22,406 bases of DNA, from IMG/VR virus record IMGVR_UViG_2537562020_000008; one strand, written 5' to 3'. The stretch's first letter is position 1. The number at the start of each line of letters is the position of its first letter. Shown here in pieces: positions 5,109-22,125 of the stretch. The translations under genes were made by a program, and so were the position numbers. The notes below the pieces were generated by a model. The model did no database searches, had not been told where the DNA came from, and worked only from the letters and a program-made list of their open reading frames with translations. The stretch is from a virus (taxonomy: Duplodnaviria > Heunggongvirae > Uroviricota > Caudoviricetes).

Positions 5109-5205
5109 ACGCCCTCCAAATATTGCGCGTTATGCATGTTATTTCACGCAATTATTTTGCGCAAGTTGATTTGCTTATCACGCAATAAAGAAATGTAATA
5201 AACGC
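5109..5205. promoter_or_regulatory. Immunity-region operator/promoter region (OR-like) between cro and cI
   Basis: Seen directly: ttgcgcgttatgcat (5123..5137), cacgcaattattttgcg (5144..5160) and ttgcttatcacgcaa (5171..5185), sharing TTGC/GCAA half-sites. Confidence 0.7.
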
Positions 5206-5898
5206 ATGAACATAGGAAACCGAGTCAGACAACTTCGCCAAGCGAAGAACATGAAAATCGCCGATCTCGCTGAAGCGATAGGAGTAGATGCGGCGAACAT
5301 CTCGCGCTTAGAAACGGGTAAGCAAAAACAATTTACCGAACAAACACTGAGTAATATTGCCAAGAGCTTAGGTGTTGATATTGCTGATCTCTTTACCTCT
5401 GCCCACAAAAGTAATACTGTATATAAAAACAGTAATAATGAGGATGTTGCGCAGGTGAAGGATGTGTTCCGTATTGAAATGCTGGATATCAGTGCCAGTG
5501 CGGGAAATGGCCTTATCCAGGGCGGTGATGTCATTGATGTGATTCATGCCATCGAATACAGAACTGATAATGCTGTATCAATGTTCGGCGGACGACCAGC
5601 CAATCACATCAAAGTTATCAACGTTCGTGGGGACAGTATGTGTCCAACCATTGAGCCCGGAGATCTCATCTTCGTTGATGTCAGCATCAATCAGTTTGAT
5701 GGTGATGGTATATATGTCTTTGGTTTTGATGACAAAATATACGTTAAAAGACTTCAAATGATTCCTGACAAACTGCTGGTGATTTCTGATAACCAGATTT
5801 ACCGTGAATGGGGAATTACTAGCGAAAACGAACACCGATTCATGGTCTTTGGAAAGGTCTTAATCAGTCAGTCGCAAACCCTTAAGAGACATAATTAA
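5206..5898 (+). CDS. cI: cI-like prophage repressor (N-terminal XRE HTH + C-terminal LexA-like S24 peptidase domain)
   Basis: 230 aa; HTH (MKIADLAEAIGVDAANISRLETGK) and C-terminal S24-type region (VRGDSMCPTIEPGDLIFVD ... IYVKRL). Confidence 0.9.
   Translation: MNIGNRVRQLRQAKNMKIADLAEAIGVDAANISRLETGKQKQFTEQTLSNIAKSLGVDIADLFTSAHKSNTVYKNSNNEDVAQVKDVFRIEMLDISASAGNGLIQGGDVIDVIHAIEYRTDNAVSMFGGRPANHIKVINVRGDSMCPTIEPGDLIFVDVSINQFDGDGIYVFGFDDKIYVKRLQMIPDKLLVISDNQIYREWGITSENEHRFMVFGKVLISQSQTLKRHN
5415..5434. promoter_or_regulatory. Near-consensus SOS (LexA) box embedded in the cI coding sequence
   Basis: Seen directly: TACTGTATATAAAAACAGTA versus consensus TACTGTATATATATACAGTA; CTGT-N8-ACAG core intact. 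Confidence 0.5.
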
Positions 5899-5917: not shown

Positions 5918-5942
5918 GGCCACCGAAAGGTGGCTTTTTATT
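5918..5942 (+). terminator. Rho-independent terminator downstream of cI
   Basis: GGCCACC-gaaa-GGTGGC hairpin followed by TTTTTATT, 20 nt after the cI stop. Confidence 0.75.
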
Positions 5943-5952
5943 ACCTATAAAT

Positions 5953-5989
5953 TTGCATATCTCGCAAATATCACTTGCATGTCTCGCAA
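5953..5989. promoter_or_regulatory. OL-like operator pair (two 15-bp TTGC-N7-GCAA sites, 22 bp apart)
   Basis: Seen directly: ttgcatatctcgcaa (5953..5967) and ttgcatgtctcgcaa (5975..5989), same half-sites as the cro/cI intergenic sites. Confidence 0.55.
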
Positions 5990-6175
5990 TTTAATTTTAT
6001 CTTTTGTTCCAGACCAACTACAGGATTACAACAAAATCTGGTTGCAACACGGTGCATGTGTCGTAAGCAGTCAGTAAATGTCAAAAACGAACAGGCAGGA
6101 CGCCCACGAAGTAGCCGCCTGGGGCATATGAAGTCCAGGATGATTCGTTGAGTCATGTTGTGCCACTAGGCACTC

Positions 6176-6472
6176 ATGTTAAAGCAGGTGTATGAAATGA
6201 AAGTCCAGATTTTAAACAATAACTGTGAAGTCGTTTGGTCATACGACATAGCCGCCCCTGTAGATCAGAGCGGCGATAGCTGGACCAATGGGAAACATCA
6301 GATTATGGCTGGAGTTGTGTTCTCTTTACGCCGTGCTTTGGAACAGGCTGAAGTATTTCCATCAGACCCTGAATGGAAATGGCCTTTTTCTATTTGTCCA
6401 AATTCGGAGAGCACATTTCAGAAAATTGGTCAGAAAGTCGCACTCGAAGAGCATCAGCCAACTGTTTCCTGA
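6176..6472 (+). CDS. Hypothetical moron protein (possible start at 6196, MKVQILNN...)
   Basis: ORF downstream of the OL-like sites at the position occupied by rexAB/sieB in lambdoid phages. Its 3' end overlaps the convergent ORF by ~80 bp, so one of the two may be mis-called. Confidence 0.35.
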   Translation: MLKQVYEMKVQILNNNCEVVWSYDIAAPVDQSGDSWTNGKHQIMAGVVFSLRRALEQAEVFPSDPEWKWPFSICPNSESTFQKIGQKVALEEHQPTVS

Positions 6473-6635
6473 TTTTTTCAGGTAACTCGTCGGCATCGCA
6501 GAAACAACAACGCTCGATCATGTTGAAAGCCGATTCGTAGAACTGTTTCTGCTGAGTGTCGCTGAGACAGGAAAAGAGCGACGTTACGATGATTTTATTA
6601 ATTGCATTATCAAGTTCTTTTTCATCAAAAGTCAT
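6390..6635 (-). CDS. Hypothetical small Cys-containing protein (81 aa)
   Basis: Good RBS (aaaaggaaaatcaaATG); contains CCFC; no family recognised. Confidence 0.45.
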   Translation of the reverse strand: MTFDEKELDNAINKIIVTSLFSCLSDTQQKQFYESAFNMIERCCFCDADELPEKIRKQLADALRVRLSDQFSEMCSPNLDK

Positions 6636-7072
6636 TTGATTTTCCTTTTATGTATACGGGCTTAAAAGGATACCACCGAGCCTGAAGTGGTGAAAAGACA
6701 GGCACATAACAGCTAAGTATTTTCAACCAAAGAGAATCCTTAGCGTTGTGGTGAATGCGGCTCAGCGCACGCGGGTTAAGGTTGAGGCTGACAGTCGACC
6801 TTCTGTGGATACCCACCCGTCTGGTGTGCAACCTTCGCCAGGCACCGGGAGGCACCCGGCACCACAACTTTATGCTGTGTGTAGTCCTGGCGGTACCAGT
6901 TTGTACCCTTGCTTCCGGCTGGTACCGTCCTTTTTACAAAACAGAGAAGAGCATCACCGGACGACGGGCTCATAACCCAATCCATCCGGGCGGCTGCCAC
7001 CGCAGGTGTTCTTCTCTGTTTTGTGGAGAAACTAATCGGCCTTGCAGGGTCGATATGATGAGGAGCAGCAAA

Positions 7073-7447
7073 ATGGCTAGCGAACGCAGTACTGATGTAC
7101 AGGCATTTATCGGGGAGCTGGACGGCGGCGTATTTGAAACCAAAATCGGCGCAGTTCTCAGTGAAGTCGCTTCCGGTGTGATGAACAGGAGGGACAGCTG
7201 ATAGAAACAGAAGCCACTGGAGCACCTCAAAAACACCATCATACACTAAATCAGTAAGTTGGCAGCATCACCCAAACTCTCATATGTTCGCCCGACTAAC
7301 CGCGGGAAAATTTCCGAAGAAGACACCACCGAAACGCCGATGTATGTCAATCGCGGTGGTCGCCTGACTATTCTGCAGGAAGACCAGGGACAATTACTGA
7401 CTCTTGCCGGTGAACCTGACGGAAAACTCCGCGCAGCAGGTCATTAA
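7073..7447 (+). pseudogene. Prophage gene split by a ~90-bp IS1-end remnant (5' part 7073..7182, 3' part 7273..7447)
   Basis: RBS gaggagcagcaaaATG at 7073; 5' fragment MASERSTDVQAFIGELDGGVFETKIGAVLSEVASGV stops inside the IS1-derived segment; 3' fragment KLSYVRPTNRGKISEED...GKLRAAGH resumes in the same frame after it. Confidence 0.4.
7183..7272 (-). mobile_element. IS1 left-end remnant (IRL plus ~65 bp; the rest of IS1 absent)
   Basis: Reverse complement reads GGTGATGCTGCCAACTTACTGATTTAGTGTATGATGGTGTTTTTGAGGTGCTCCAGTGGCTTCTGTTTCTATCAGCTGTCCCTCCTGTTCA, matching the IS1 terminus and start of insA as I recall it; similarity ends near 7183. Confidence 0.8.
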
Positions 7448-9660: not shown

Positions 9661-10010
9661 TGGAGCCATACAGCCTCACACTCGATGAGGCCTGTCATTT
9701 TCTCAAGATATCCAGACCGACTGCCATTAACTGGATACGCACAGGGCGTCTTCAGGCAACACGCAAAGATCCCACTAAGAATAAATCTCCTTACCTCACA
9801 ACACGACAAGCCTGCATTGCGGCTCTTCAGTCTCCGCTGCATACTGTCCAGGTGAGCGCGGGTGATGGCATAACAGAGGAAAGAAAATGTCACTCTTCCG
9901 CAGAGGTGAAATATGGTACGCCAGTTTCACATTGCCGAACGGTAAAAGATTTAAACAGTCTCTTGGAACAAAGGACAAAAGGCAGGCGACAGAACTCCAT
10001 GACAAGCTAA
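9660..10010 (+). CDS. xis: Excisionase (P22 Xis-like HTH)
   Basis: [40 protein letters not shown]... matches the P22-type Xis pattern; start shares a nucleotide with the yfdT stop (TAATG); 3' end overlaps the int start. Confidence 0.75.
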
Positions 10011-11050
10011 AGGCTGAAGCATGGCGGGTCAGCAAACTTGGTGAAATACCTGATATAACGTTCGAGGAAGCGTGTGTCAGGTGGCTTGAAGAGAAAGCAC
10101 ATAAAAAATCACTGGACGATGACAAAAGCCGGATCGGATTCTGGCTTCAACATTTCGCAGGAATGCAACTAAGAGACATTACTGAATCAAAAATTTATTC
10201 AGCAATGCAGAAAATGACGAACCGGCGTCATGAGGAAAACTGGAAACTCAGGGCAGAAGCATGCAGAAAAAAAGGGAAACCTGTTCCAGAATACACGCCA
10301 AAACCAGCGTCCGTTGCAACGAAGGCTACGCATCTTTCATTTATAAAGGCCCTACTAAGAGCCGCAGAGCGTGAATGGAAAATGCTGGATAAGGCACCAA
10401 TTATTAAAGTGCCTCAACCAAAGAATAAACGGATCCGCTGGCTGGAGCCCCATGAAGCACAAAGGCTGATTGATGAATGTCCGGAGCCATTAAAGTCTGT
10501 TGTTGAATTTGCACTGGCAACAGGCTTAAGACGCTCGAACATCATCAACCTTGAATGGCAACAAATAGATATGCAGCGCCGGGTGGCATGGATAAACCCG
10601 GAAGAGAGTAAATCAAACCGCGCAATCGGCGTTGCGCTGAATGATACTGCATGTCGCGTTTTGAAAAAACAAATCGGGAATCATCACCGTTGGGTATTTG
10701 TGTACAAGGAAAGCTGTACCAAACCAGACGGAACGAAAGCGCCAACAGTAAGGAAGATGCGGTATGACGCAAACACAGCCTGGAAAGCAGCGCTGAGACG
10801 GGCTGGTATTGATGATTTCAGATTTCACGACTTGAGACACACCTGGGCAAGTTGGCTGGTTCAAGCCGGAGTCCCGTTGTCAGTGTTACAGGAAATGGGA
10901 GGCTGGGAGTCTATCGAAATGGTTCGTCGATATGCTCACCTTGCACCTAATCACCTTACCGAACACGCACGGCAAATAGACTCGATCCTGAACCCATCGG
11001 TCCCAAATTCGTCCCAGTCAAAAAATAAGGAAGGTACTAATGATGTGTAA
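9887..11050 (+). CDS. int: Tyrosine integrase, P22-type
   Basis: 387 aa; [47 protein letters not shown]... and C-terminal [41 protein letters not shown] (catalytic R..HxxR..Y); abuts a tRNA-Thr 3' fragment. Confidence 0.9.
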
Positions 11051-11113: not shown

Positions 11114-11201
11114 TAAATTGATCTTGTAAAATCAATACCTATCGAATTTAAATGGATTTTTTGCCACAATATTGCCACAGTTCGTTAGGAATCAGACAGA
11201 A

Positions 11202-12275
11202 ATGGCGACTATACGCAAACGTGGTAACTACCAATGGGAAGCTCAAATCCGTAAACGTGGTTTTCCCTCTCAAACCAAAACCTTTAACACCAAAGTAGAA
11301 GCAGAAGCTTGGGCCAAAATGATCGAGTCAGAAATGGCGAGAGGAGTTTGGCTTAGCCGCAGCGAAGCGGAATCTACGACATTGTATGAAGCCCTAACGC
11401 GATATGAAAAAGAGATTGTTCCCGACAAAAAAGGGGCAGTGCAAGACCGATCATTGGTGCGGATACTAAAAGGCACTCAGCTGGCGAAAAACTATATGGC
11501 CAGCATCAGGAGTGCCGATGTCGCCAAGCTGAGAGATGAATGGTTGAAAATCTATGCTCCTGCAACCGTTTTAAGGCGTTTGGCCTTACTTTCTCATGTA
11601 TTCAATGTTTCGCGGAAAGAATGGGGCATGGAGAGCCTGCTGAACCCCGTAGAGGCCATTCGTAAACCCCAACCCAAGAACTCCAGGACCAGACGCCTAG
11701 AAGCGCTGCCTGTAGTTTCTGAGAAAACCGGTGTTACGTCAGGAAAGCAAATAGCCAACGAGATCGAACATATCATCGCCGCAACACATTCATTAGTATT
11801 GCCAGCAATCATTCTTCTGGCGTTAGAGACAGCCATGCGCCGTAGCGAAATCGCAGAGCTTCGATGGCGCTTTATCGATCTTGATCGGCGAGTTGCACAT
11901 CTGCCGGATACTAAGAATGGTAATGCCCGCGATGTCCCTTTATCAACGAAAGCCATTACGATACTGTCCAGTCTCAAGGAACATTCTAAGCCAGCTGCTG
12001 ATAAGGTTTTTGATATGCGTGCAGACGCGATTACCCGAGCTTTTGACCGAGCTGTAAAACGAGCCAGAGAACGATACGAGAAAACAAACTCATTATGTGA
12101 TGAATCTTTCCTTAAAGATTTAAGATTTCATGACCTTCGACATGAAGCAACTTCTCGACTTGCTGAAATTTTCCCTATGCATGAACTAACCAAAATTACA
12201 GGACATAAAGATCCAAGAATGCTAATGCGGTATTATCATCCAAAAGCTGAAGATTTGGCGTTAAAGTTGAAATAA
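11202..12275 (+). CDS. Second tyrosine recombinase/integrase (island integrase; a longer ORF begins at 11172)
   Basis: RBS AGGAA before the ATG at 11202; C-terminal LRFHDLRHEATSRL ... LMRYYH catalytic signature. Confidence 0.8.
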   Translation: MATIRKRGNYQWEAQIRKRGFPSQTKTFNTKVEAEAWAKMIESEMARGVWLSRSEAESTTLYEALTRYEKEIVPDKKGAVQDRSLVRILKGTQLAKNYMASIRSADVAKLRDEWLKIYAPATVLRRLALLSHVFNVSRKEWGMESLLNPVEAIRKPQPKNSRTRRLEALPVVSEKTGVTSGKQIANEIEHIIAATHSLVLPAIILLALETAMRRSEIAELRWRFIDLDRRVAHLPDTKNGNARDVPLSTKAITILSSLKEHSKPAADKVFDMRADAITRAFDRAVKRARERYEKTNSLCDESFLKDLRFHDLRHEATSRLAEIFPMHELTKITGHKDPRMLMRYYHPKAEDLALKLK

Positions 12276-12284
12276 GGACGTTGT

Positions 12285-13061
12285 ATGGATTATAAAAATA
12301 AGTTAGTTGATGCATCACCAAAATTAAACAACCCTCAACTATTGGCTATAATATACTTAATACCTTTTGGATACTTGATTGTAGAAAACCCATTATGGCT
12401 AGAAAATATATACATTGCCGCTCCAATTTTCCTATCATCTATAGCTTTATTAACCAGTGTATACATAGGATATCGTGATTTATTAAATAAAGTATTTAAT
12501 AATGCAGTAGTTAAATGGGGCGTAACTGGCTTTACATATTCCGTATGCTTATGGATCGCAAAGTTTAAGCTTGACATAGCTTATGGTATAGTCCCAGAAA
12601 ACCTTAATTACTCGACATTAGCTTATGCTTTCATGCTCTCATTTCCAATAGGGGCAATGATTTGTGCAATTACAGTCTATATATACATATTTTTGCGAGA
12701 TGTATCCCCAGCAAAAATAGTAATATCCTCTATGATTTCAGTATATATTGGAAGCTTGGCTCAACATCATATACAGATGAACAATCTTCCTGAAAAAATA
12801 ATATTAATAGGACTTATAATTATGGTCCCCTATAACATGGTCAATTTAGCTAGTTCATTAGTTATTAAAAGGAAATTTAATTTTAATCGTTTAGTATCAG
12901 GCTTATCCCTTTTTGCTGTGTCAGTTGCTCTTTTTATTATTAGCATGACAGCAATGAAATACATTGAAAGATTTCAAGAAAAGTTTATTTTTCTCGATGC
13001 AAGAACATCTACGACATGTGGTAGCTCAGAAAGCAAATCTCTTTATATTGAAAAAAAATGA
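12285..13061 (+). CDS. Polytopic inner-membrane protein, unknown function
   Basis: 258 aa with several long hydrophobic segments; starts 10 nt after the integrase stop with an AAGGA RBS; AT-rich codon usage. Confidence 0.6.
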   Translation: MDYKNKLVDASPKLNNPQLLAIIYLIPFGYLIVENPLWLENIYIAAPIFLSSIALLTSVYIGYRDLLNKVFNNAVVKWGVTGFTYSVCLWIAKFKLDIAYGIVPENLNYSTLAYAFMLSFPIGAMICAITVYIYIFLRDVSPAKIVISSMISVYIGSLAQHHIQMNNLPEKIILIGLIIMVPYNMVNLASSLVIKRKFNFNRLVSGLSLFAVSVALFIISMTAMKYIERFQEKFIFLDARTSTTCGSSESKSLYIEKK

Positions 13062-13162
13062 AAATCAGTGTTATAAAATATCAGGAAATAAATTCTCGGA
13101 GTTAAGACTAACTCTTGTAGATAAAAACATCTTGAATATAAATAATAAAGGCACTTCAACTT

Positions 13163-13390
13163 ATGAACAAAAATAACCCTGCTAATTCATTTTCTATAGA
13201 AGCAAGGAAAGAAGCTTTTCGGAGAGCTGAAGCCAGTCTTTTTTTATCAAGTAAAGATCCCAAAGGCTCCTCATTTTTTAATGAAATAAAAACTAAGGTA
13301 ATCAATGGAGAGCTAACCTATGAAGAGGCAAAGAGAGAAGTATTAAATTATCACATTGAACAATCTAAAAATCAAAATAAAAGAGGCTAA
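13163..13390 (+). CDS. Small VbhA-like (Fic-antitoxin fold) protein - tentative; canonical inhibitory Glu motif not evident
   Basis: 75 aa; RRAEASLFLSS ... VINGELTYEEAKREVLNYH parallels VbhA (ARNALASQRLEG ... VVVGELETSDVIKDLMERI) by eye. Confidence 0.4.
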   Translation: MNKNNPANSFSIEARKEAFRRAEASLFLSSKDPKGSSFFNEIKTKVINGELTYEEAKREVLNYHIEQSKNQNKRG

Positions 13391-13406
13391 CATTTAGTTA
13401 GCCTCT
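13382..13406 (-). terminator. Hairpin terminator for the minus-strand 70-aa gene, overlapping the 3' end of the plus-strand small gene
   Basis: AGAGGCTAAC-attta-GTTAGCCTCT perfect 10-bp stem; a U-rich tract follows on the minus-strand transcript. Confidence 0.5.
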
Positions 13407-13411
13407 TCTCA

Positions 13412-13624
13412 CTAGTGAGCTATTTTATAGTCCCTTAATGCATTTTTAAGTAACTCCGTTTGCTCATCAGCATCATCATAATTATAAATTCCCGTAGCAG
13501 AATAATACTCTTCGATGCATAGAATATTTATCAATGGTTCACAAATCTCTTTAATAAAATCCTTGTTGTTATCGGCAAAAATAATTTTTATTCCTTCCAA
13601 AACAAAGCTATTATAATCAGCCAT
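13412..13624 (-). CDS. Hypothetical small acidic protein (70 aa)
   Basis: Strong RBS (AGGAGGTGGATAATG); acidic composition; no family recognised. Confidence 0.55.
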   Translation of the reverse strand: MADYNSFVLEGIKIIFADNNKDFIKEICEPLINILCIEEYYSATGIYNYDDADEQTELLKNALRDYKIAH

Positions 13625-13693
13625 TATCCACCTCCTTACAGGTGTTTAGTGGAAGCGTCAGTTAACGTTACCGCGCTAACTGACGCGCCTAAA

Positions 13694-15097
13694 TCAAGAT
13701 TTTTTACTGCCAGTTAAACTATCACCCTCAAACTCATCCTGTTCGTGGTTAGTCTGACGATCGGCTGTGTGTTTACGTATTTGATTCGCTATTTCCCCAC
13801 CAACGGTCTGTTGTCTTCGGATAGTATTAGTACTTCCCTTCATCATCTGATACTCCGAAGCTCCGTTAGACAGCCCGCTCGCCATGTGAGAAGCCATGCG
13901 GCCAGCTCGTGAGAATGATGAAGCAAACCCCTGGCTTCCTCCGCTGACGCTACCTGTATTACTCCCTGCAGAAGAACCACCGGAACCGCCTGATGGTTGT
14001 CCTCCAGAAGTATCTACGGAACCGGTATCTTCCCCTCCGCCAAATCCTCCACCTGAACCACCTTTATCACCAGAACCAGATTCTTCGGCCATCGCCGCTT
14101 GTGCAGATTCAAATGCTGCTTTTAGAGCGGAAGCACCACCACTGACTTGAGCTGTAGCACTTATTGCCATTGCCCCAGCGCCACTGATTGCAGTAGTAGC
14201 AGCGCCAGTAATCATACCTGCTCCAAAACCACCGATCCCTTGTAAGGACGCTCCTCCAACAACGCCTGATAACAACAACGGTAATTTATTCGTCAATACT
14301 AAAAGAATAATTGACGCCAGAAGTAAAACAATAAGACTATTAAGATCAGGAATATCATTTTTAATAATAGAAAAATACTGATCTATAAATGATTGCCCAA
14401 TCCCAATGATTAATGTCATCGTAAATAACTGAATACCAATCGATAATACTGTGCGTAAGTAATTTATTGCTATATCAGAAGTCCATTTCGAGCCACCAAA
14501 CCCAAGCAAAATAACTCCTGCATAACACAACACCCATGCAGAAACTAACATTATTAGCATATTTATCGCGATAAGCGCCATTACTACTAATACTATTATC
14601 GCGACGGTTATCATAATGGTCGAAATCATTGGAGACCAAATTGATGCTGCTGAACTGACCTTTGTTAATATCACAAATGCCATATCCACTATGCTGGAGG
14701 GTGAAATACCAGTACTTGTTCCTAAAGCATTTGCTGCAAGTTGTCTCATTGAGTTAATTATAGATTGTGATATGGCTGGGCCGTTGATTAAAAGATAATA
14801 AAAAAAACCAATCACGGCAAAAAAACGAACTATTTCTGCAAGTGCACTGATTAAACCTTCCCCTTGCATCGCCAACATACCAAATGTCCAAACCATACTT
14901 ATTAATACCAACCCCCAGAAGAGCCAATTTGCATAATCACCAATTACTAATGACCATGTGCTGGCTACTTGCTGAAACTTATCTAATAACGTATCAAGTA
15001 ATCCGCTACTATCTAATTGACCAGCATAAGCATTTACAGAAAACAAAAAAAACATTCCTAAAAAAGTGAGCTTGCTTACTATTCTCATAATTACCAT
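13694..15097 (-). CDS. trbL: TrbL/VirB6-like type IV secretion protein (polytopic, Gly/Ser-rich C-terminal tail)
   Basis: 467 aa; multiple TM segments then a low-complexity tail (GSGGGFGGGEDTGSVDTSGGQPSGGSGGSS); directly follows trbJ and a trbK-like ORF, as in P-type Tra2 clusters. Alternative start at 15088. Confidence 0.75.
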   Translation of the reverse strand: MVIMRIVSKLTFLGMFFLFSVNAYAGQLDSSGLLDTLLDKFQQVASTWSLVIGDYANWLFWGLVLISMVWTFGMLAMQGEGLISALAEIVRFFAVIGFFYYLLINGPAISQSIINSMRQLAANALGTSTGISPSSIVDMAFVILTKVSSAASIWSPMISTIMITVAIIVLVVMALIAINMLIMLVSAWVLCYAGVILLGFGGSKWTSDIAINYLRTVLSIGIQLFTMTLIIGIGQSFIDQYFSIIKNDIPDLNSLIVLLLASIILLVLTNKLPLLLSGVVGGASLQGIGGFGAGMITGAATTAISGAGAMAISATAQVSGGASALKAAFESAQAAMAEESGSGDKGGSGGGFGGGEDTGSVDTSGGQPSGGSGGSSAGSNTGSVSGGSQGFASSFSRAGRMASHMASGLSNGASEYQMMKGSTNTIRRQQTVGGEIANQIRKHTADRQTNHEQDEFEGDSLTGSKKS

Positions 15098-15264
15098 TCT
15101 CGCTTAGGGCTAGGATTGTTATTGCCACGCAGGGCACATTTATCGTAGTTATGTTCGTTCAATTTATTCTCTGGCGTCGATAAACAATCTTCATCTTTTT
15201 TATCGCAAGAGCATAGAATTAATGAAATTATTAGAATAAAAATGACCAAAAGTTTATCTTTCAT
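15091..15264 (-). CDS. trbK: TrbK-like small lipoprotein (entry exclusion), 57 aa; below the ORF-track size cutoff
   Basis: Own translation: MKDKLLVIFILIISLILCSCDKKDEDCLSTPENKLNEHNYDKCALRGNNNPSPKREW; signal peptide with lipobox-like LCSC; lies between trbJ and trbL. Confidence 0.5.
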   Translation of the reverse strand: MKDKLLVIFILIISLILCSCDKKDEDCLSTPENKLNEHNYDKCALRGNNNPSPKREW

Positions 15265-15275
15265 TCAGCTCTCCC

Positions 15276-16070
15276 TCACCAAATTCGCTTCGGGCTTGGT
15301 GTGTTCTCGCCAGCTAACGCTTTTTCATCAGCGACTATTTGTTGGGCTTCTTTATCAGCCTCAGCCTGTGCCAGTGTTGCTGCAGCGTTTTGCTGAGCTA
15401 CCAGAAGCGAGCGGATTTGCAGCAACTGGTTCGTTTGAGCACTGGCAAGCTGGTTAGCGGCCTGAATAGCTTCCATTTGCCCTTGTGCGCCGGTTGCCTG
15501 CGTTTGCAAATCTGCAAGGTTGTCAGCATCGCTTTGCAGTGTTTCCTGCTGTTCGTCAAGAGCCTTAAATACAGCGTCATTGGCCTTTTTACGTGCCTCA
15601 GAGCTGTTCTGTTCAGCTTTGCGCAGTGCGCTAATTTCATCCGCAGTACATTCAACATTACTGTTAAAGCACGGTGATGAGCGGTAGTAATTCACGTCCT
15701 GATAACGTTTCAGATATGAATCAAGACTCCCGGCCTGGTTTTTGTAGTAATTTAGGGTGTCCTGCGCCTGCAACAATTTGTTGATGGTCGAATTGGCCTG
15801 ATCCCAGATATAGGCTGCAGGTGCGACTGTATTTTTGAGCATGTTTTCATACTGCTGCAGCTGCGTCTGGTACTGCTGGATCTGTTTTGCCACAGCCTGA
15901 ACGTTGTTGACTGCGCTGATTGTGGTCTGCACCACATTAGTACCATCGATTACAGGGATACCGGCTGTCGCCGGTAATGCCATGATGGACGCCAGGAAGG
16001 AAGCAGCTAATGATTTTTTAGCTGCTAAAATCCCTCTCAGTGATGAAAATACTCGGAGCATTAACTTCAT
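15276..16070 (-). CDS. trbJ: TrbJ/VirB5-like type IV secretion protein
   Basis: Signal peptide then GIPVIDGTNVVQTTISAVNNVQAVAKQIQQYQTQLQQYENMLKNT, matching the TrbJ signature as recalled; Gln-rich coiled-coil C-terminus. Confidence 0.8.
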   Translation of the reverse strand: MKLMLRVFSSLRGILAAKKSLAASFLASIMALPATAGIPVIDGTNVVQTTISAVNNVQAVAKQIQQYQTQLQQYENMLKNTVAPAAYIWDQANSTINKLLQAQDTLNYYKNQAGSLDSYLKRYQDVNYYRSSPCFNSNVECTADEISALRKAEQNSSEARKKANDAVFKALDEQQETLQSDADNLADLQTQATGAQGQMEAIQAANQLASAQTNQLLQIRSLLVAQQNAAATLAQAEADKEAQQIVADEKALAGENTPSPKRIW

Positions 16071-16151
16071 TTGCCCACCTCAAATTTAACTGATTATTAA
16101 TATTGAAAACTCGTACTTTTAACAAATACAGATATTTAGGGAACCATAAAT

Positions 16152-16517
16152 TTATTTATTCAAGATTCTATCCATAATATTTCTTAGTTCTTGTCTGGTT
16201 GATTCTATTTTAGCAAGCAACGTTTTTATCAATGAGGGTGAAAAATCAACTGTGCGTGGATCGTTAGCTAACCACAGTTTAAGTAACCCACCAAGTCGAC
16301 CAAGATCAGCATTTACTCGGCTAAGCTCTACAACCTGTTCAATATCTACCATAGACTCAACCTGATAACCCATTGCTACTTTACGAATGAAACTCGCTAC
16401 ACTTAAGCCGGATGCTTCTGCATTATCCTGGATTTGCGCTTTTTCATCTGGCAAACAATAAACTTTAATTGGTGTACTATTTTTTCTAGTCTGAGAAACG
16501 GTCATATCATTCTCCAT
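16152..16517 (-). CDS. mobC: MobC-like relaxosome accessory protein (ribbon-helix-helix)
   Basis: 121 aa; RHH-like N-terminus (KVYCLPDEKAQIQDNAEASGLSVASFIRKVAMG) and DLGRLGGLLKLWL resembling the MobC-family conserved segment. Confidence 0.55.
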   Translation of the reverse strand: MENDMTVSQTRKNSTPIKVYCLPDEKAQIQDNAEASGLSVASFIRKVAMGYQVESMVDIEQVVELSRVNADLGRLGGLLKLWLANDPRTVDFSPSLIKTLLAKIESTRQELRNIMDRILNK

Positions 16518-16584
16518 ACAGGCGGTAGCCGATCAGCCTCGCAGAGCAGGACTCCGTTGAGCAGCTCAGCTGCGAATAAGGGAA

Positions 16585-16635
16585 GGTAAAGTAGAAGCAC
16601 CGTTTACGGTGGGCCTACTTTACATATCCTGCCCT
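16585..16635. other. oriT-like site: 9-bp inverted repeat around an inner palindrome, followed by a MOBP-type nick motif ATCCTGC
   Basis: Seen directly: GTAAAGTAG-aagcaccgtttacggtgggc-CTACTTTAC then acatATCCTGCcc at 16626..16632; lies ~70 bp upstream of mobC. Confidence 0.4.
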
Positions 16636-16787
16636 ACATTTGCCGTTGTGAATCTGTGTACGTATTGTGTATTTCTGTGTACTCAGTGTGTTTTCCTAAA
16701 GCATTTGTGCAGGATTAGTAGTGTAAAAATGTGCAGCATATGTGTTTATTGGAATGGAAATTATTTGAATGCCCCTAAGAGATATTT

Positions 16788-17081
16788 TTATTCTCGCGGC
16801 TTGGGTTTTGGCGGCCTGCCACGTTTCCTTTGACATCTATTTATCTCTTTCGCTATATCGTCATTTTCTGTCTTTGACTCAACAGATTTATCTATCCAGT
16901 CCTTAACATCTTCTCTACGCCAGAGAAGACGTTTATTACCGGGAAGACGGCATCTTGGTGGAAGACATTTTGGATTTCGCGTTGCATCACTGCGGATACT
17001 TTTTACAGTTTTCTTTAATGCAAAAGCCAACTCTTCAACGGTTATAAGTTCTGGCATAACTGATTTCATCGAAGAACCCAT
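16788..17081 (-). CDS. Excisionase/AlpA-like HTH DNA-binding protein with basic AT-hook-like tail
   Basis: 97 aa; LITVEELAFALKKTVKSIRSDATRNPKCLPPRCRLPGNKRLLWRREDVKDWI is an AlpA/Xis-type HTH pattern; C-terminal RKRGRPPKPKPRE. Confidence 0.55.
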   Translation of the reverse strand: MGSSMKSVMPELITVEELAFALKKTVKSIRSDATRNPKCLPPRCRLPGNKRLLWRREDVKDWIDKSVESKTENDDIAKEINRCQRKRGRPPKPKPRE

Positions 17082-17103
17082 CTCTCAGTAGAAATTTGAG
17101 GAT

Positions 17104-17131
17104 TTTAGCGGCTAAAATTTTAGCCGCTAAA
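17104..17131. promoter_or_regulatory. Perfect 28-bp palindrome just upstream of the excisionase-like gene (operator or bidirectional hairpin)
   Basis: Seen directly: TTTAGCGGCTAAAA|TTTTAGCCGCTAAA. Confidence 0.45.
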
Positions 17132-17382
17132 GTTTGCTAACCAACGTTATGAATTGAGAATAATTAAAACTTACTGGCAAAAAGAATAATGTCAACAGGG
17201 TTTTTATTCATCGGATTCTTACTCCATATGAAATTGGTTTTATTGACCGATTTCTGAATGACACTAAGGTTTTAATAATTCCTTTAATCTTTTTGGTTAT
17301 ATAAAAGGTTAAAGATCAGGTTAGAGAGGTGTGGAAAAGCGATATATTCACTTGTTTACTATGACAATTTTAAATTATATCC

Positions 17383-17448
17383 GTACCTCAAATGTCATGA
17401 AAGCGTACCTCATATGTCATAAAGGCGTACCTCATATGTCATATAATA
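17383..17448. repeat. Three tandem copies of a 22-bp unit (GTACCTCATATGTCAT core)
   Basis: Seen directly: gtacctcaaatgtcatgaaagc / gtacctcatatgtcataaaggc / gtacctcatatgtcatataata. Confidence 0.85.
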
Positions 17449-17528
17449 AAAAATAAGCAAACAAGTTATACACAATATTATTAACAGAATCTGTGGATAA
17501 ATACACAGATTATACATGATAAAATAGA

Positions 17529-17734
17529 TTGTTTAGCTAAACTAAATAACAATAAATAAAATGAAACAAAATGTAAATAACAGGGGGGGTGTAGGTGACT
17601 TATAAATTTGGTTAGCTAACCTTTATAAGAAACACTGTTTGTAAATGATTCATTTCTGACAACGGATATATCGAATTTGAGTAAGAAAAACACTTCAACT
17701 AACCTTACTCTCTGATTTGTTTAGCTAAACAAAT
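17529..17734. promoter_or_regulatory. Three palindromes with a shared TTAGCTAA core upstream of the HigA-like gene (putative operators)
   Basis: Seen directly: ttgtttagctaaac (17529..17542), ggttagctaacc (17610..17621), atttgtttagctaaacaaat (17715..17734, perfect 20 bp). Confidence 0.5.
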
Positions 17735-17775
17735 TACTGTAAGGAATCCGATGACGTTAAAAAAAAGGGGGGGAT

Positions 17776-18033
17776 ATGAGGACAATAAATGCTGCACCTT
17801 CAACTGTCGGAGAGATTTTATACGAAGAATTCTTGAAACCATTGGATATGCCTCCCGCAAGACTTGCTGAACTGATGGATACATCATATGAAAAAATTTG
17901 GGAAATAATTAAAAATGAGCGAAATATAACTCTTGAAGAAGCTATTCAACTCTCGATAATTTTCAATACAGATGCATCTTTTTGGGTGAAACTGCAAGAG
18001 CTACATGAGGCATGGTTTAATAAACAAAAGTAA
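17776..18033 (+). CDS. HigA-like HTH (XRE-family antitoxin-type) regulator, no cognate toxin ORF detected
   Basis: 85 aa; VGEILYEEFLKPLDMPPARLAELMDTSYEKIWEIIKNERNITLEEAIQLSIIFNTDASFWVKLQ matches the HigA/VapI pattern; preceded by an A8G7 homopolymer pair. Confidence 0.65.
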   Translation: MRTINAAPSTVGEILYEEFLKPLDMPPARLAELMDTSYEKIWEIIKNERNITLEEAIQLSIIFNTDASFWVKLQELHEAWFNKQK

Positions 18034-18233
18034 GGTTATTCAATTAGATTACTTAGTACTAATACATAATTTGCTTTGAATAATACTCATACATTTCTAA
18101 CGACTTATTAAAGCGATAATATACTCGGACGACTGAGGATTAAAAAATCCGATCCTTGATGATGGGAACCTGCCATGACTAGGTAAGTCATTTTAGCAGT
18201 GGTACAGGCGACATTAAAAGCCGATATAAAGAA

Positions 18234-18266
18234 GCCCGACTGGTAAGATCGGGCCTTTTTATTTTT
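18234..18266 (+). terminator. Rho-independent terminator
   Basis: GCCCGA-ctggtaaga-TCGGGC hairpin followed by CTTTTTATTTTT. Confidence 0.6.
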
Positions 18267-18688
18267 CCACTCTGGCCTGAATAGAACATCCTACATTAGA
18301 CGTTAAGATCTTACATCTAATTATCCGAAACTACTAATGGATGCGTAGTTGCATTTGACCTGACCGCCCATTTGCGGGTTACTCTACCATCGCCAATAAA
18401 GTCCGGCTACTCGAATTCGGAAGTATTAGGCTATAGGTCATAAACCTGAATAACTGCTATGTGCTGAAGCGGATAAAGCTGACATCATTATGCACCAATC
18501 AACTCGGTGTAAGTCAGCTAGTTGGTGATGGAGTGACTTGTCAATAGTTGTAGCCCCTACCAGTGCATCGGAGATTCTTGAGTGTAACCTTAGTTGCATT
18601 AATCAGAAGTAAAGGAAACGTACTATGAAAATCAGTACTCTTAATCAAGAGATCCCCCGTTCTCTCACGGAAAAGGGGGATTGAATTT

Positions 18689-19951: not shown

Positions 19952-20198
19952 AAATATTTTATTAATCCTATAAATTATAAGTTAAGTATTAGTCTTTTAT
20001 CTACAAACCAAAGCCACTTTACTACTTTACCTAACTGCACTTTAAACAATCATAAGTTCTTTTTTTTTAAAAAGGTAGTCCAAAGATACCAATTTATTCA
20101 ATATCAACGAGAATTCGAGACTCCTATGTGAGTAAAAAACTATGAGCTTCATGCCATGCTTTCAATAAATGTCTTCAGTTACCCATAAATTTACTGGA

Positions 20199-20726
20199 TT
20201 AACAATTTGTAGTCTTTCCGACCAAATTACCGCGCGCAGTGTGACCCCATACTTTAGAGGTCACCTTATCTCTTTCCACTAGTTGTTTACGGTGCATCAA
20301 ATCGGCAAGCAGTATTGAAACAAAGAACATGAATTTTGTTTTGGGAGTATTAGGAACATCTTTGGGTCCAAGCCAAGGTAGCTGCTCCAGTTGATTTTGT
20401 ATTTTGGGTGTTGCGAAGCTAACACCATTCCAACTATGCCCAAAAGCATTTCTAATGCTACGCAGTGTGTTTAGTTCTTTGTATTCGTGTTCCATTATCA
20501 GTCCTAACGCATATGCTAAGCCTGTTCTAGCAGCAAAAGATGATAAAGGCGCTGTTGCACCATTCAGTAGACCTTTAGCTACTTTGTCATTTAACAGGTG
20601 AGCCTGGATGATCTCGGATAACCACTCATCGAAAATGGATGCTGCTATTAGAACAGAGCCACGATCTGATTCTTTATTTAGTTCGGACAAAAATTGACCG
20701 AGTTCAATTTGGGTTTTATCACTCAC
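20199..20726 (-). CDS. Uncharacterised 175-aa alpha-helical protein with R-N-x3-H (HEPN-type) motif; by-eye resemblance to MtlR/DUF4145-like domains
   Basis: RNAFGH at aa 92..97 in ...LAYALGLIMEHEYKELNTLRSIRNAFGHSW; by-eye resemblance to the MtlR helical domain. Confidence 0.55.
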   Translation of the reverse strand: MSDKTQIELGQFLSELNKESDRGSVLIAASIFDEWLSEIIQAHLLNDKVAKGLLNGATAPLSSFAARTGLAYALGLIMEHEYKELNTLRSIRNAFGHSWNGVSFATPKIQNQLEQLPWLGPKDVPNTPKTKFMFFVSILLADLMHRKQLVERDKVTSKVWGHTARGNLVGKTTNC

Positions 20727-21214: not shown

Positions 21215-21234
21215 AGGCCGCCTTTAGGCAGCCT
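21215..21234 (-). terminator. Putative terminator hairpin for the 225-aa gene
   Basis: On the minus-strand RNA: AGGCUGCC-UAAA-GGCGGCCU (one G-U pair) followed by a U-rich tract; 6 nt after the stop codon. Confidence 0.4.
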
Positions 21235-21240
21235 CTTATT

Positions 21241-21918: not shown

Positions 21919-21922
21919 GCTC

Positions 21923-22120: not shown

Positions 22121-22125
22121 AATCC

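What the first reader, a model, noticed from the sequence alone, without database searches (positions are those of the whole stretch)
6750..7060. GC-rich segment with nested perfect inverted repeats: candidate structured RNA or recombination relic
Seen directly: a 15-bp perfect inverted repeat ACAAAACAGAGAAGA (6936..6950) / TCTTCTCTGTTTTGT (7010..7024) enclosing a GC-rich core; a 9-bp perfect inverted repeat CGGTACCAG (6891..6899) / CTGGTACCG (6919..6927); and CCGGG-aggca-CCCGG (6845..6859). All six-frame ORFs here look like arginine-rich read-through rather than real proteins. Composition differs from the flanking phage DNA. I could not match it to a known RNA family.
Basis: seen in the sequence. 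Interest (0 to 1): 0.5.

Follow-up and report, generated by a model that had tools for sequence, protein, structure and literature searches.

The report
Structured leader RNA of prophage operon
The GC-rich block is a chain of conserved RNA structures (a relative of the prophage small RNA STnc100, a transcription terminator, and a new hairpin motif) in front of the early genes of an SfV/e14-type prophage; E. coli K-12 annotates the same stretch as the protein gene ymfH, probably wrongly.

Summary
All three inverted repeats are real, at the stated coordinates, and not chance. Each belongs to a different conserved RNA element on the + strand, in the untranslated leader between the early-left promoter PL (about 5975-6003) and yfdP (ATG 7074).

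- **CCGGG/CCCGG (6845-6859)** is the invariant last hairpin of a multi-helix, pseudoknotted domain (6745-6868). The domain is a sub-threshold relative of Rfam STnc100 (39.5 bits, cut-off 47, E 5e-7).
- **The 9-bp repeat** is the stem of an intrinsic terminator, T1 (6889-6935).
- **The 15-bp repeat** is the base of a three-way-junction RNA, "B" (6936-7024). B has 13 of 31 pairs with compensatory changes across about 15 genera and matches no Rfam family.

The block travels with the prophage, not with IS1, and is found in 2778 of 5426 complete E. coli genomes. It is homologous to K-12 e14 "ymfH". No reading frame is conserved: indels are not multiples of three, codon-position variation shows no periodicity, and one homologue has stops in all six frames.

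Most likely role (inferred): a terminate-or-read-through checkpoint that releases an STnc100-like RNA, followed by a cis-acting 5'-UTR element. The function of B is unknown.

Verdict: a new variant of a known kind, of moderate interest.

The parts
5953..6003 (+). Context: left operators and early-left promoter PL. Two copies of TTGCATrTCTCGCAA; -35 TTGCAT at 5975-5980; 17-nt spacer; -10 TATCTT at 5998-6003. Lies just after the cI terminator (5918-5935).
   Evidence: repeat family D1 (5171-5185 in the cI/cro region, 5953-5967, 5975-5989); terminator; 5206-5898 is an HTH + S24 repressor. The hexamers were read from the sequence. The start site near 6010 is inferred.
6087..6154 (+). Context: E1, a conserved 68-nt two-hairpin RNA element close to the promoter. 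It is a candidate antiterminator by its position only.
   Evidence: 43 distinct variants were found, and in the loci inspected it lies just downstream of PL promoters with several different operator sets; 5 of 12 pairs have compensatory changes; 92.3 bits here, and no hit to HK022 put.
6664..6706 (+). Context: P motif, ACCACCGAGCCTGAAGTGGTGAAAAGACAGGCA. Two interleaved 4-5 bp complementarities (ACCAC/GTGGT and GCCTG/CAGGC).
   Evidence: 24 variants, always in the same orientation as the leader, with one compensatory variant (GCCGG/CCGGC). In phage LLS it begins about 10 nt after the PL start site. It may instead, or also, be the promoter of the divergent ymfI-like gene 6635-6390(-).
6712..6744 (+). 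H0, the hairpin that precedes the domain (GCTAAGTATTTTC / GAGAATCCTTAGC).
   Evidence: inverted repeat I2. A hairpin occupies the same position in other leaders, with different sequences.
6745..6868 (+). Domain A, an STnc100-superfamily structured RNA.
- P1: 6745-6753 / 6860-6868
- AAU: 6754-6756
- P2: 6756-6759 / 6766-6769
- X: 6778-6784, pairing with the P4 loop 6829-6835 (pseudoknot)
- Variable P3: 6785-6819
- P4: 6820-6826 / 6836-6842
- P5: 6845-6849 / 6855-6859
- Invariant 22-mer: 6843-6864
   Evidence: Rfam STnc100, 39.5 bits, E 5.3e-7, model positions 1-206; the 22-mer is exact in at least 120 viral contigs; the outer pairs of P1 covary (GC 13 / AU 11); pseudoknot test; fold.
6869..6888 (+). 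Conserved single-stranded linker, TTTATGCTGTGTGTAGTCCT.
   Evidence: TGCTGTGTGTAGTC is kept in leaders from many genera and in phiES15 and LLS. Its reverse complement has no other match in the window.
6889..6935 (+). T1, an intrinsic terminator: 13-bp stem 6889-6901 / 6917-6929, then TTTTT at 6931-6935.
   Evidence: -20.5 kcal/mol, z -3.95; all 19 diverse leaders have a GC-rich hairpin (about 9-14 bp) ending 0-2 nt before a run of 5-8 T, with different stem sequences.
6936..7024 (+). B, a three-way-junction leader RNA. It has a 19-bp basal stem, an arm carrying the near-invariant loop GACGGGCTCATAACCCAATCC (6963-6983), and a short variable arm GCGG..CCGC (6989-7002).
   Evidence: 20 sequences, 97.4% of cells paired, 13 of 31 pairs with changes on both sides, 0 of 500 shuffles reach the covariation score, and slid controls pair only 37-58% of cells.: + strand 112.9 bits, - strand 37.6 bits; single copy in phage SfV.
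7025..7073 (+). Rest of the yfdP 5' UTR: conserved GGAGAAACTAA, small hairpin h (7035-7054), Shine-Dalgarno GAGGAG (7061-7066).
   Evidence: fold of 7025-7080; conservation.
7074..7447 (+). yfdP, the first gene after the leader. Here it is disrupted: about 73 nt are replaced by an 85-nt IS1 end fragment (7187-7272).
   Evidence: alignment with SfV orf32; the IS1 part matches thousands of places that are annotated as IS1 transposase regions.

Best explanation
Window 6745-7073 is not a gene for a protein. It is the structured, untranslated leader RNA of the early-left (PL) operon of an SfV/e14-type lambdoid prophage. It is transcribed left to right from PL (about 5975-6003), which is held off by the cI-like repressor in a lysogen. 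It is the same locus that E. coli K-12 calls ymfH.

**Parts.**
1. Domain A (6745-6868). It is closed by a 9-bp helix and carries a pseudoknot. It ends in the 22-nt block that is invariant in the STnc100/PasD prophage sRNA superfamily.
2. A conserved linker, then an intrinsic terminator T1 (6889-6935).
3. B (6936-7024), a three-way-junction RNA with a near-invariant loop. It begins directly after the U-tract of T1.
4. A small hairpin and the yfdP ribosome-binding site.

**Shown here.**
- The structures, their strand and their conservation.
- The absence of any conserved reading frame.
- The position of the block inside the PL operon.
- The absence of a sigma-70-type promoter match directly in front of domain A. 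Canonical STnc100 copies do have one.

**Inferred mechanism.** After derepression, part of the PL transcription stops at T1. This gives an RNA whose 3' module (domain A + linker + terminator hairpin + U tail) is a stable STnc100-like RNA. By analogy with STnc100 and PasD it may bind Hfq and act in trans. The polymerases that read through T1 continue into B and the yfdP...xis-int genes. Read-through may be leakage, or it may be helped by the promoter-proximal elements E1 and/or P, since this phage group lacks an N protein.

B then acts in cis on the downstream message. The options are processing or stabilisation at its 19-bp stem, or binding of a factor to its invariant loop. Which of these applies is not determined.
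For: **Anatomy and folding.**

**Known-family link.**
- Rfam STnc100, full-length alignment, E 5.3e-7.
- The 22-mer CACCGGGAGGCACCCGGCACCA is shared exactly with copies that do score as STnc100 at 54-132 bits.

**Superfamily structure.**
- P1 covaries.
- The pseudoknot between the strand after P2 and the P4 loop is at least 6 bp in 90% of 70 distinct sequences. The figure is 19% for mismatched partners and 8% for shuffled loops. At least 10 different covarying pair types occur, including AAGGUUG/CAACCUU (window) against AAGGCUG/CAGCCUU (phiES15).

**B.**
- 13 of 31 pairs are compensatory and 97.4% of cells are paired; controls fail.
- The G-U pairs and the model scores show it is a + strand RNA.
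- It occurs only behind leader-type copies of A.

**T1.** A terminator is kept in 19 of 19 diverse leaders, with changed stem sequences.

**Not coding.**
- B homologues differ by +2, +13, +16 and +25 nt, and several have stops in every + strand frame.
- Locus L017 has no open frame across B on either strand.
- Variation by codon position is 0.127 / 0.120 / 0.148.
- No Pfam or NCBIfam family matches.
- PHROGs 'families' exist for ORFs on both strands of the same DNA.
- The K-12 ymfH ORF exists only because of a 1-nt deletion and a G>A change inside the otherwise invariant 22-mer.

**Operon context.**
- Operators and promoter.
- The same order, cI - (orf33) - leader - yfdP...int, in SfV, ST64B, mEp460 and LLS.
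- In e14 the leader directly precedes xisE-intE. In phiES15, A + T1 precede kil-gam.
- No + strand promoter match in 6300-7258.

**Literature.**
- STnc100 and PasD are related, Hfq-associated prophage sRNAs seen on Northern blots (bioRxiv 10.64898/2026.05.13.724894; PMC8550237; PMC5331693).
- LLS has no N homologue (PMC12315714).
- ymfH is listed in an intE-xisE-ymfH operon and in the e14-induction (YmfT) iModulon (PMC12132413).
Against: - There is no transcript, 3'-end or Hfq-binding data for this variant. Every functional step is inference.
- The Rfam score is below the curated cut-off.
- By energy alone domain A is unremarkable (z -1.9).
- In this copy the X strand can also form a local 8-bp hairpin (6778-6785 / 6795-6802) that competes with the pseudoknot.
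- The promoter scan is a crude consensus match, so a weak or non-sigma-70 promoter in front of A cannot be excluded.
- In the window, PL lies about 900 nt upstream with an ORF (6197-6472) in between. A would therefore be a 3'-UTR-type RNA that needs processing to become a 'small' RNA.
- How T1 is passed is unknown. E1 shows no detectable similarity to HK022 put. About half of the B-containing loci (51 of 100; most are IMG/VR contigs that encode a YfdP identical to SfV's) matched neither of my simple E1 or P patterns.
- GC-rich DNA has few stop codons, so long open frames do exist in some homologues.
Confidence: 0.6

Rival explanations
1. The segment is a protein-coding gene of the YmfH family that has become a frameshifted pseudogene in this prophage. 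The inverted repeats are incidental.
For: - K-12 annotates ymfH (103 aa) over the homologous DNA.
- PGAP calls a 'frameshifted hypothetical protein' at the equivalent of 6748-7058.
- The + strand ORF fragment 6930-7058 matches a PHROG.
- Overexpressing the ymfH clone has a phenotype: it triggers the retron-Sen2 toxin (bioRxiv 10.1101/2020.06.22.160242).
Against: - The frame is not conserved. Indels are not multiples of three, stops occur in all frames in some homologues, and there is no third-position bias.
- The 'intact' K-12 frame depends on mutations inside a block that is invariant in more than 100 other copies.
- An ORF on the opposite strand matches a PHROG even more strongly (1.4e-89). 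Such matches therefore reflect DNA conservation, not a protein.
- No Pfam or NCBIfam family matches.
- Substitutions come in base-pair-preserving pairs.
- The clone's phenotype could equally be due to its RNA.
Confidence: 0.06
2. Domain A + T1 is a free-standing small-RNA gene with its own promoter, like canonical STnc100/PasD. It would be expressed in the lysogen and act only in trans through Hfq. Its position in the leader would be incidental.
For: - Homology to STnc100.
- Canonical copies have a TTGACA-17-TAAATT type promoter ending about 7 nt before the 5' helix, and they have their own terminator.
- They are expressed in lysogens (PMC5331693, PMC8550237).
- The linker is conserved and single-stranded, as a seed region would be.
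Against: - No promoter-like match on the + strand upstream of 6745. The best -10-like hexamer, GAGAAT (6732-6737), has no -35 and is not conserved in ST64B or mEp460.
- The domain is always preceded by a hairpin H0, and it always lies between PL and the first early-left gene.
- The same slot can hold a tRNA, a csrA-like gene or nothing.
Confidence: 0.15
3. B is a processive antiterminator of the HK022 put type, or a nut-like site. Its invariant loop would bind RNA polymerase or Nus factors and make the elongation complex resistant to terminators and Rho across yfdP...int.
For: - This phage group has no N protein (PMC12315714).
- B is a compact two-armed RNA at the start of a 4-kb operon.
- The loop GGCUCAUAACCC loosely resembles boxA (GCUCUUUAAC; from memory), and the GU-rich tail resembles boxC.
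- It is strongly conserved across genera.
Against: - B lies downstream of T1, not upstream of it.
- It occurs once per phage, with no copy in the rightward operon.
- There is no sequence similarity to putL or putR.
- The boxA-like bases are partly paired in the consensus.
- Only weak terminator-like sites lie downstream.
Confidence: 0.12
4. A DNA-level feature: a recombination relic, a cruciform, or a sequence brought in by IS1.
For: Perfect inverted repeats. A GC content that differs from the flanks. An IS1 fragment 120 nt away.
Against: - The block is 100% identical in phage SfV, which has no IS1 there.
- It is present in 2778 of 5426 E. coli genomes, almost always chromosomal and prophage-borne.
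- The G-U pairs and the strand-asymmetric model scores show selection on one RNA strand.
Confidence: 0.02

Closest known systems
STnc100 (Rfam RF02076) and PasD1/PasD2 prophage small RNAs
   Same: - The 5' closing helix followed by GAAU.
- An identical 22-nt 3' block (hairpin P5 plus the 3' strand of P1).
- The P4 hairpin whose loop pairs with the strand after P2.
- A linker and an intrinsic terminator.
- A lambdoid prophage host.
- A full-length Rfam alignment at E 5e-7.
   Different: - It scores 39.5 bits, below the 47-bit cut-off, as do all the other leader-type copies tested.
- P2 and the interior differ.
- It has no promoter of its own.
- It lies in the early-left leader, not in the late region. 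Canonical copies sit beside tRNA genes or downstream of stx2, often in tandem arrays (PMC12370729).
- Expression and Hfq binding have not been tested for this variant.
E. coli K-12 e14 gene ymfH (b1142)
   Same: The same locus. Roughly 90% of aligned bases are identical from the P motif to the small hairpin, and the order of elements is the same.
   Different: - K-12 annotates a 103-aa protein. Its copy carries a 1-nt deletion and a G>A change in the invariant 22-mer, which fuse two frames.
- In e14 the leader runs straight into xisE-intE, not into yfdP.
Lambda PL leader (nutL, RNase III hairpin, N, tL1) and the lambda PR'-6S RNA-tR' unit
   Same: The same genome position: between the repressor gene and the early-left genes. 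A terminator that must be passed to reach xis/int. A long hairpin just before the first ribosome-binding site. A short terminated transcript as the default product. (Textbook knowledge.)
   Different: No N gene and no recognisable boxB. The terminator comes before the first conserved gene. The structures are unrelated in sequence.
HK022 put antiterminator RNAs
   Same: A lambdoid phage without N that relies on cis-acting leader RNA (PMC9378689). In one locus with HK022-type operators (L014), element E1 lies where HK022 has putL.
   Different: No sequence or model similarity for E1, P or B. One copy per phage, not two. No functional test.

Membership tests
Rfam RF02076 STnc100 | Covariance-model score at or above the curated gathering cut-off (47 bits) | tested here: not met
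   39.5 bits at 6723-6938. Absent from the gathering-threshold scan. Canonical copies score 54-132 bits, and all leader-type copies fail.
Rfam RF02076 STnc100 | A statistically significant alignment covering the whole model | tested here: met
   E 5.3e-7, model positions 1-206 of 206.
Rfam RF02076 STnc100 | Conserved core: 5' (R)UGGUGAAU, and 3' CACCGGGAGGCACCCGGCACCA closing the domain | tested here: met
   6748-6756 and 6843-6864. The 22-mer is exact in at least 120 viral contigs, including copies that pass the Rfam cut-off.
Rfam RF02076 STnc100 | Pairing between the P4 loop and the upstream strand. This feature was derived here from the superfamily; it is not part of the Rfam model. | tested here: met
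   AAGGTTG 6778-6784 pairs with CAACCTT 6829-6835. Family-wide: 90% of sequences, against 19% and 8% in the controls. A competing local hairpin exists in this copy.
Rfam RF02076 STnc100 | Independent gene: own promoter immediately upstream and own terminator | tested here: not met
   The terminator is present. There is no + strand promoter match upstream, unlike canonical copies.
Rfam RF02076 STnc100 | Expressed, Hfq-associated small RNA | not testable with these tools
   Known only for canonical copies and PasD (PMC5331693, PMC8550237).
YmfH protein family | A reading frame conserved among homologues, with a coding substitution pattern | tested here: not met
   (indels not in threes, stops in all frames in some homologues, no periodicity). 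(no Pfam or NCBIfam family).
Intrinsic (Rho-independent) terminator | A GC-rich hairpin directly followed by a U-tract, conserved in position | tested here: met
   13-bp stem, -20.5 kcal/mol, then UUUUU. Present in 19 of 19 diverse leaders. Termination itself was not measured.
HK022 put RNA | Sequence and structure similarity to putL/putR | tested here: not met
   Only 7-8-nt chance words are shared with the leader. The E1 model finds nothing in HK022.
HK022 put RNA | Lies between an early promoter and the terminators it suppresses; one copy in each early operon | tested here: not met
   B lies after T1 and is single-copy in SfV. E1 lies before T1 but is also single-copy.
tRNA / tRNA-like element | Recognised by tRNA detectors | tested here: not met
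   ARAGORN finds none in the window. In Phytobacter loci L021 and L026, however, the same slot holds a genuine tRNA whose acceptor stem (GUUGUGGCG/CGCCGCAAC) is almost the P1 helix.

The most novel reading that the evidence does not exclude
SfV/e14/ST64B/LLS-type lambdoid phages lack N. They may run their early-left operon with an RNA-only control region built from exchangeable modules:
- a promoter-proximal antiterminator analogue (E1 and/or P), unrelated in sequence to HK022 put;
- a 'cargo slot' closed by a helix like a tRNA acceptor stem;
- a checkpoint terminator (T1);
- a new factor-binding leader motif (B).

The cargo slot can carry an STnc100-type pseudoknotted RNA, other structured RNAs, a real tRNA or a csrA-like gene. 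In this reading the STnc100 fold is not a plain base-pairing sRNA. It would be a tRNA-mimicking, RNase P/processing-competent domain (P1 stacked on P5, like acceptor stem on T arm). The K-12 gene ymfH, including its retron-triggering activity, would be an RNA.
Probability: 0.22. Interest if true: 0.75.

Novelty: new variant of a known kind. Interest (0 to 1): 0.5.

Why it matters
**Re-annotation.** A stretch present in about half of complete E. coli genomes is annotated as a protein: ymfH in K-12, and 'hypothetical' or 'frameshifted' proteins elsewhere. It is better explained as structured RNA. This affects genome annotation, and it affects how ymfH phenotypes such as retron-Sen2 triggering are read.

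**The STnc100 family.** The STnc100/PasD family is treated in the literature as ordinary Hfq sRNAs. Here it turns out to have a conserved pseudoknot and an invariant 22-nt block. It also has a divergent branch embedded in early-operon leaders. This points to a function that depends on a tertiary fold.

**Early antitermination without N.** The leader offers concrete, testable candidates (E1, P, T1, B) for how N-less lambdoid phages pass early terminators. This question was left open when phage LLS was described (PMC12315714).

Tried and rejected
- **put homology.** HK022 putL and putR were extracted and compared with the leader. Only chance 7-8-mers are shared. A covariance model of E1 does not find them. 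King 2011 (further put-like RNAs) could not be read. The put alignment in PMC9378689 is an image.
- **A second copy of B or E1 in the rightward operon.** None in the whole SfV genome.
- **B next to canonical STnc100 copies.** None in 100 loci.
- **Other Rfam families at relaxed thresholds.** Only noise (ftsZ-DE, DicF, cyano-S1, Hairpin, Sphinx_2).
- **A target for the conserved linker or for the B loop inside the window.** No complementary site.
- **A named Salmonella sRNA in ST64B.** The STnc3750 lead was wrong; it lies at pgtE.
- **A tRNA or tmRNA call in the window.** None.
- **Protein reading.** Pfam, NCBIfam and PHROGs were tried on all overlapping ORFs. The PHROG hits on both strands are ORF calls at this same conserved locus.
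- **P motif as a proven pseudoknot.** Only one compensatory variant was found, so it is left open.
- **Not run.** I did not run the large protein-database searches on YmfH. The frame-conservation tests already answer the question.
Full report
**1. The observation.**

- The 15-mer 6936-6950 / 7010-7024 extends to 25-nt arms.
- A fourth perfect 9-mer, GTTGTGGTG 6745-6753 / CACCACAAC 6860-6868, encloses the left half of the block.

G+C is 0.577 in 6750-7049, against about 0.40-0.45 in the flanks.

As RNA, 6700-7073 folds to -159.8 kcal/mol (z -6.2). Hairpin 6932-7030 alone gives z -6.9, and the 6889-6929 hairpin gives z -4.0. The 5' domain 6745-6868 is not exceptional by energy (z -1.9).

**2. 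Where it lies.**

The window carries an SfV-like lambdoid prophage.
- 6700-7073 is 100% identical to phage SfV. There it is the unannotated gap between orf33 and orf32 (= yfdP).
- 5206-5898 encodes an HTH + S24 repressor, followed by a terminator at 5918-5935.
- Two copies of the operator TTGCATrTCTCGCAA follow. The same operator occurs in the cI/cro region. They overlap a -35 TTGCAT / -10 TATCTT promoter that points rightward (read).

The block therefore lies in the early-left (PL) transcription unit: PL - E1 - orf33 (6197-6472) - leader - yfdP yfdQ yfdR ... xis int (9887-11050).

No sigma-70-like match on the + strand lies between 6300 and 7258.

The block does not travel with IS1.
- It is found in 2778 of 5426 complete E. 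coli genomes, and 1825 of them carry at least 80% of it. Almost all places are chromosomal.
- It usually lies upstream of an intact yfdP.
- In the window, yfdP itself carries an 85-nt IS1-end scar at 7187-7272 that replaces about 73 nt.

**3. The left half is a relative of STnc100.**

At Rfam's curated thresholds nothing is reported here. A relaxed scan aligns 6723-6938 to the whole STnc100 model (RF02076) at 39.5 bits (cut-off 47) and E 5.3e-7.

That block is exact in at least 120 viral contigs. Many of these copies pass the Rfam cut-off at 54-132 bits. They often form tandem arrays next to tRNA genes.

Comparing about 70 distinct copies gives a common architecture:
- a closing helix P1, whose outer pairs covary (GC 13 / AU 11);
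- GAAU;
- hairpin P2;
- a short strand X;
- a variable insert;
- hairpin P4;
- the invariant hairpin P5, which abuts the 3' strand of P1.

X is complementary to the P4 loop. It forms at least 6 bp in 90% of sequences, against 19% when X and loop come from different copies and 8% for shuffled loops. At least ten different covarying pair types occur.

In the window, X is AAGGUUG (6778-6784) and the loop partner is CAACCUU (6829-6835). Cronobacter phage phiES15 has AAGGCUG/CAGCCUU. I did not find this pseudoknot described in the papers I read on the family.

One caveat applies to this copy. X can also form a local 8-bp hairpin.

The literature treats STnc100 and PasD as related, Hfq-associated prophage sRNAs of unknown function (bioRxiv 10.64898/2026.05.13.724894; PMC8550237; PMC5331693; PMC12370729).

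**4. How this copy differs from canonical STnc100.**

Canonical copies have a good promoter (for example TTGACA-17-TAAATT) that ends about 7 nt before P1, and their own terminator.

The window's type (P1 = GUUGUGGUG/CACCACAAC) has no such promoter and is preceded by a hairpin (H0, 6712-6744). It is always found between the repressor gene and the first early-left genes:
- yfdP in SfV, ST64B, mEp460 and LLS;
- kil-gam in phiES15;
- xisE-intE in e14.

All the leader-type copies tested fall below the Rfam cut-off.

Across about 25 yfdP loci from other genera, the space closed by the P1-like helix is a variable slot. It holds:
- this domain, or other structured cassettes;
- nothing at all;
- a csrA-like ORF (Providencia);
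- in Phytobacter, a genuine tRNA (ARAGORN and Rfam, 52.8 bits) whose acceptor stem GUUGUGGCG/CGCCGCAAC is almost the P1 helix.

**5. The 9-bp repeat is a terminator.**

Positions 6889-6901 / 6917-6929 form a 13-bp GC-rich stem followed by UUUUU. In all 19 diverse leaders examined, a GC-rich hairpin (about 9-14 bp) ends 0-2 nt before a run of 5-8 T at the same place. The stem sequences differ.

The linker before it (UGCUGUGUGUAGUC) is conserved and predicted to be unpaired.

**6. The 15-bp repeat is the base of a new conserved RNA, B.**

I aligned twenty homologues from Escherichia, Salmonella, Mangrovibacter, Enterobacter, Atlantibacter, Leclercia, Kosakonia, Phytobacter, Scandinavium and others. 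They give a three-way junction:
- a 19-bp basal stem;
- an arm presenting the near-invariant GACGGGCUCAUAACCCAAUCC;
- a short arm of variable length.

The support is as follows.
- Thirteen of 31 pairs show changes on both sides, and 97.4% of cells pair.
- No shuffle out of 500 reaches the covariation score.
- Sliding the partners by 1-3 columns drops pairing to 37-58%.
- Conserved U-G pairs, and model scores of 112.9 bits (+) against 37.6 bits (-), show selection on the + strand RNA.

B is single-copy in SfV. It occurs only behind leader-type copies of A. It has no Rfam match. It starts at the last U of the terminator tail. It is followed by the conserved GGAGAAACUAA, a small hairpin and the ribosome-binding site of yfdP.

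**7. It is not a protein gene.**

PGAP marks a 'frameshifted hypothetical protein' over the equivalent of 6748-7058. The reason is K-12 e14 ymfH (b1142, 103 aa). It is the homologous DNA, running from GTGGTGAAT (the 5' strand of P1) to a TGA after the small hairpin.

The K-12 frame is continuous only because that copy has lost one base from the P5 loop and carries a G>A change in the otherwise invariant 22-mer.

Across homologues:
- B differs in length by +2, +13, +16 and +25 nt;
- several have stops in every + strand frame;
- one (L017) has no open frame across B on either strand;
- variation is flat over codon positions, at 0.127 / 0.120 / 0.148.

Pfam and NCBIfam find nothing. PHROGs holds 'families' for ORFs on both strands of this DNA, and the stronger match is to the antisense ORF. 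This is what conserved non-coding DNA looks like in ORF-based clusterings.

The literature lists ymfH in an intE-xisE-ymfH operon and in the e14-induction (YmfT) iModulon (PMC12132413). That fits a leader that is co-transcribed with those genes.

A ymfH clone triggers the retron-Sen2 toxin (bioRxiv 10.1101/2020.06.22.160242). Whether the active agent is a protein or an RNA has not been tested.

**8. How it most likely works.**

Shown here: a chain of conserved + strand RNA structures with a canonical terminator in the middle, inside the PL operon, with no conserved coding frame.

Inferred:
- After derepression, some polymerases stop at T1. This gives an RNA whose 3' module is the STnc100-like domain plus the terminator hairpin and U tail, which is the usual build of an Hfq-binding sRNA.
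- Others read through into B and the early-left genes.

This phage group has no N protein (PMC12315714). Read-through may therefore be leakage, or it may be promoted by upstream RNA elements. Two candidates turned up.

*E1 (6087-6154).*
- It is a 68-nt two-hairpin element with 43 distinct variants in the loci collected. In those I inspected it lies directly downstream of PL promoters carrying several different operator sets.
- One locus with HK022-type operators has it where HK022 has putL.
- Five of its 12 pairs are compensatory.
- It shows no detectable similarity to put and is single-copy.

*The P motif (6664-6706).*
- In LLS it starts about 10 nt after the PL start site.
- Only one compensatory variant was found.
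- It may double as the promoter region of the divergent ymfI-like gene.

About half of the B-containing loci (51 of 100; most are IMG/VR contigs that encode a YfdP identical to SfV's) matched neither of my simple patterns. The antitermination idea is therefore a hypothesis, not a finding.

B's role is open. The options are an RNase III-type processing or stabilising hairpin, a binding site for a protein or for polymerase through its invariant loop, or a translation-control element. I rank a cis-acting 5'-UTR role above a put-like role, because B lies after the terminator and is single-copy.

**9. Verdict.**
- Observation: confirmed.
- 'Structured RNA': supported.
- 'Recombination relic' or a link to IS1: rejected.
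- The left half is a new, leader-embedded variant of the known STnc100/PasD kind.
- The right half (B) is a well-supported RNA motif with no match in Rfam 15.
- The ymfH protein annotation is probably wrong.
- Function is inferred. Interest is moderate.

Noticed in passing
window 6087-6154 (+): E1, a conserved 68-nt two-hairpin RNA element. Forty-three distinct variants were found, and in the loci inspected it lies directly downstream of PL promoters with several different operator sets. In locus L014, which has HK022-type operators, it lies where HK022 has putL. It has no Rfam match and no detectable similarity to put. It is a candidate processive antiterminator by position only.
   Followed up: partly
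window 6664-6706 (+): P motif, ACCACCGAGCCTGAAGTGGTGAAAAGACAGGCA. Two interleaved complementarities make it look like an H-type pseudoknot. It is always in the same orientation as the leader, and in phage LLS it starts about 10 nt after the PL start site. Only one compensatory variant was found. It may instead be the promoter (TTCACC-16-TGgTATCCT on the - strand) of the divergent gene 6635-6390.
   Followed up: partly
L021 2222-2300 and L026 1186-1264 (Phytobacter); L031 and L033 (Providencia); L012, L030; L003 2735-2890: The position held by the STnc100-like domain is a variable slot. In other leaders it holds a genuine tRNA(AAU) whose acceptor stem nearly equals helix P1, a csrA-like ORF, a different large structured cassette (closing helix CUUCGGGAGGGG.../...CCCCGCCCGAAG), or nothing.
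   Followed up: partly
L009 and L010 about 2300-2362; also L019, L024, L028, L029, L031-L033 (terminator T1 variants): In many genera the T1 hairpin is longer and contains a Shine-Dalgarno sequence plus a tiny ORF (for example AGGAGG-ATGAAGATAGTGTTCTGA, MKIVF*). Its stop codon overlaps the 3' arm of the terminator stem, and 'GATAATGTTCTG' is conserved. This looks like a translation-coupled attenuator. The window's copy lacks it.
   Followed up: no
window 7187-7272: yfdP is disrupted. About 73 nt of the gene are replaced by an 85-nt fragment of an IS1 end, with no transposase. This is a scar of an IS1 insertion followed by deletion.
   Followed up: partly
window 6197-6472 (+) and 6390-6635 (-): Two convergent ORFs overlap by 83 nt. 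Both match PHROGs strongly (phrog_3195 and phrog_3311). They mirror the overlapping ymfJ/ymfI pair of K-12 e14. The minus-strand gene sits inside the PL transcription unit.
   Followed up: no
window 11172-22406: Immediately after the prophage integrase comes a second integrase (11172-12275), followed by parts of a conjugative or mobilisable element: TrbL/VirB6 (13694-15097 -), a NikA-like protein (16152-16517 -), a traJ-II RNA (16535-16634 -, 93 bits) and PtaRNA1 (13618-13690 +, 48.6 bits). This is an integrative element in tandem with the prophage.
   Followed up: partly
L135 342-1253; L124 1121-1794; L141 7683-8235; L123 6036-7174: Canonical STnc100 copies occur as tandem arrays of two or three, and directly beside phage tRNA genes or isrI.
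   Followed up: no
L003 407-595 (-) and L004 323-511 (-): ST64B and mEp460 carry a C4 antisense RNA and an isrK RNA on the rightward side of the immunity region. These phages therefore also use P1/P4-type RNA control of an antirepressor.
   Followed up: no
L005 7248-7604 (K-12 CPS-53, upstream of yfdP): K-12's own yfdP (prophage CPS-53) has lost the whole leader. Only the last 30 nt or so, with the ribosome-binding site, are shared. K-12 keeps a degenerate copy of the leader in e14 instead, annotated as ymfH.
   Followed up: yes
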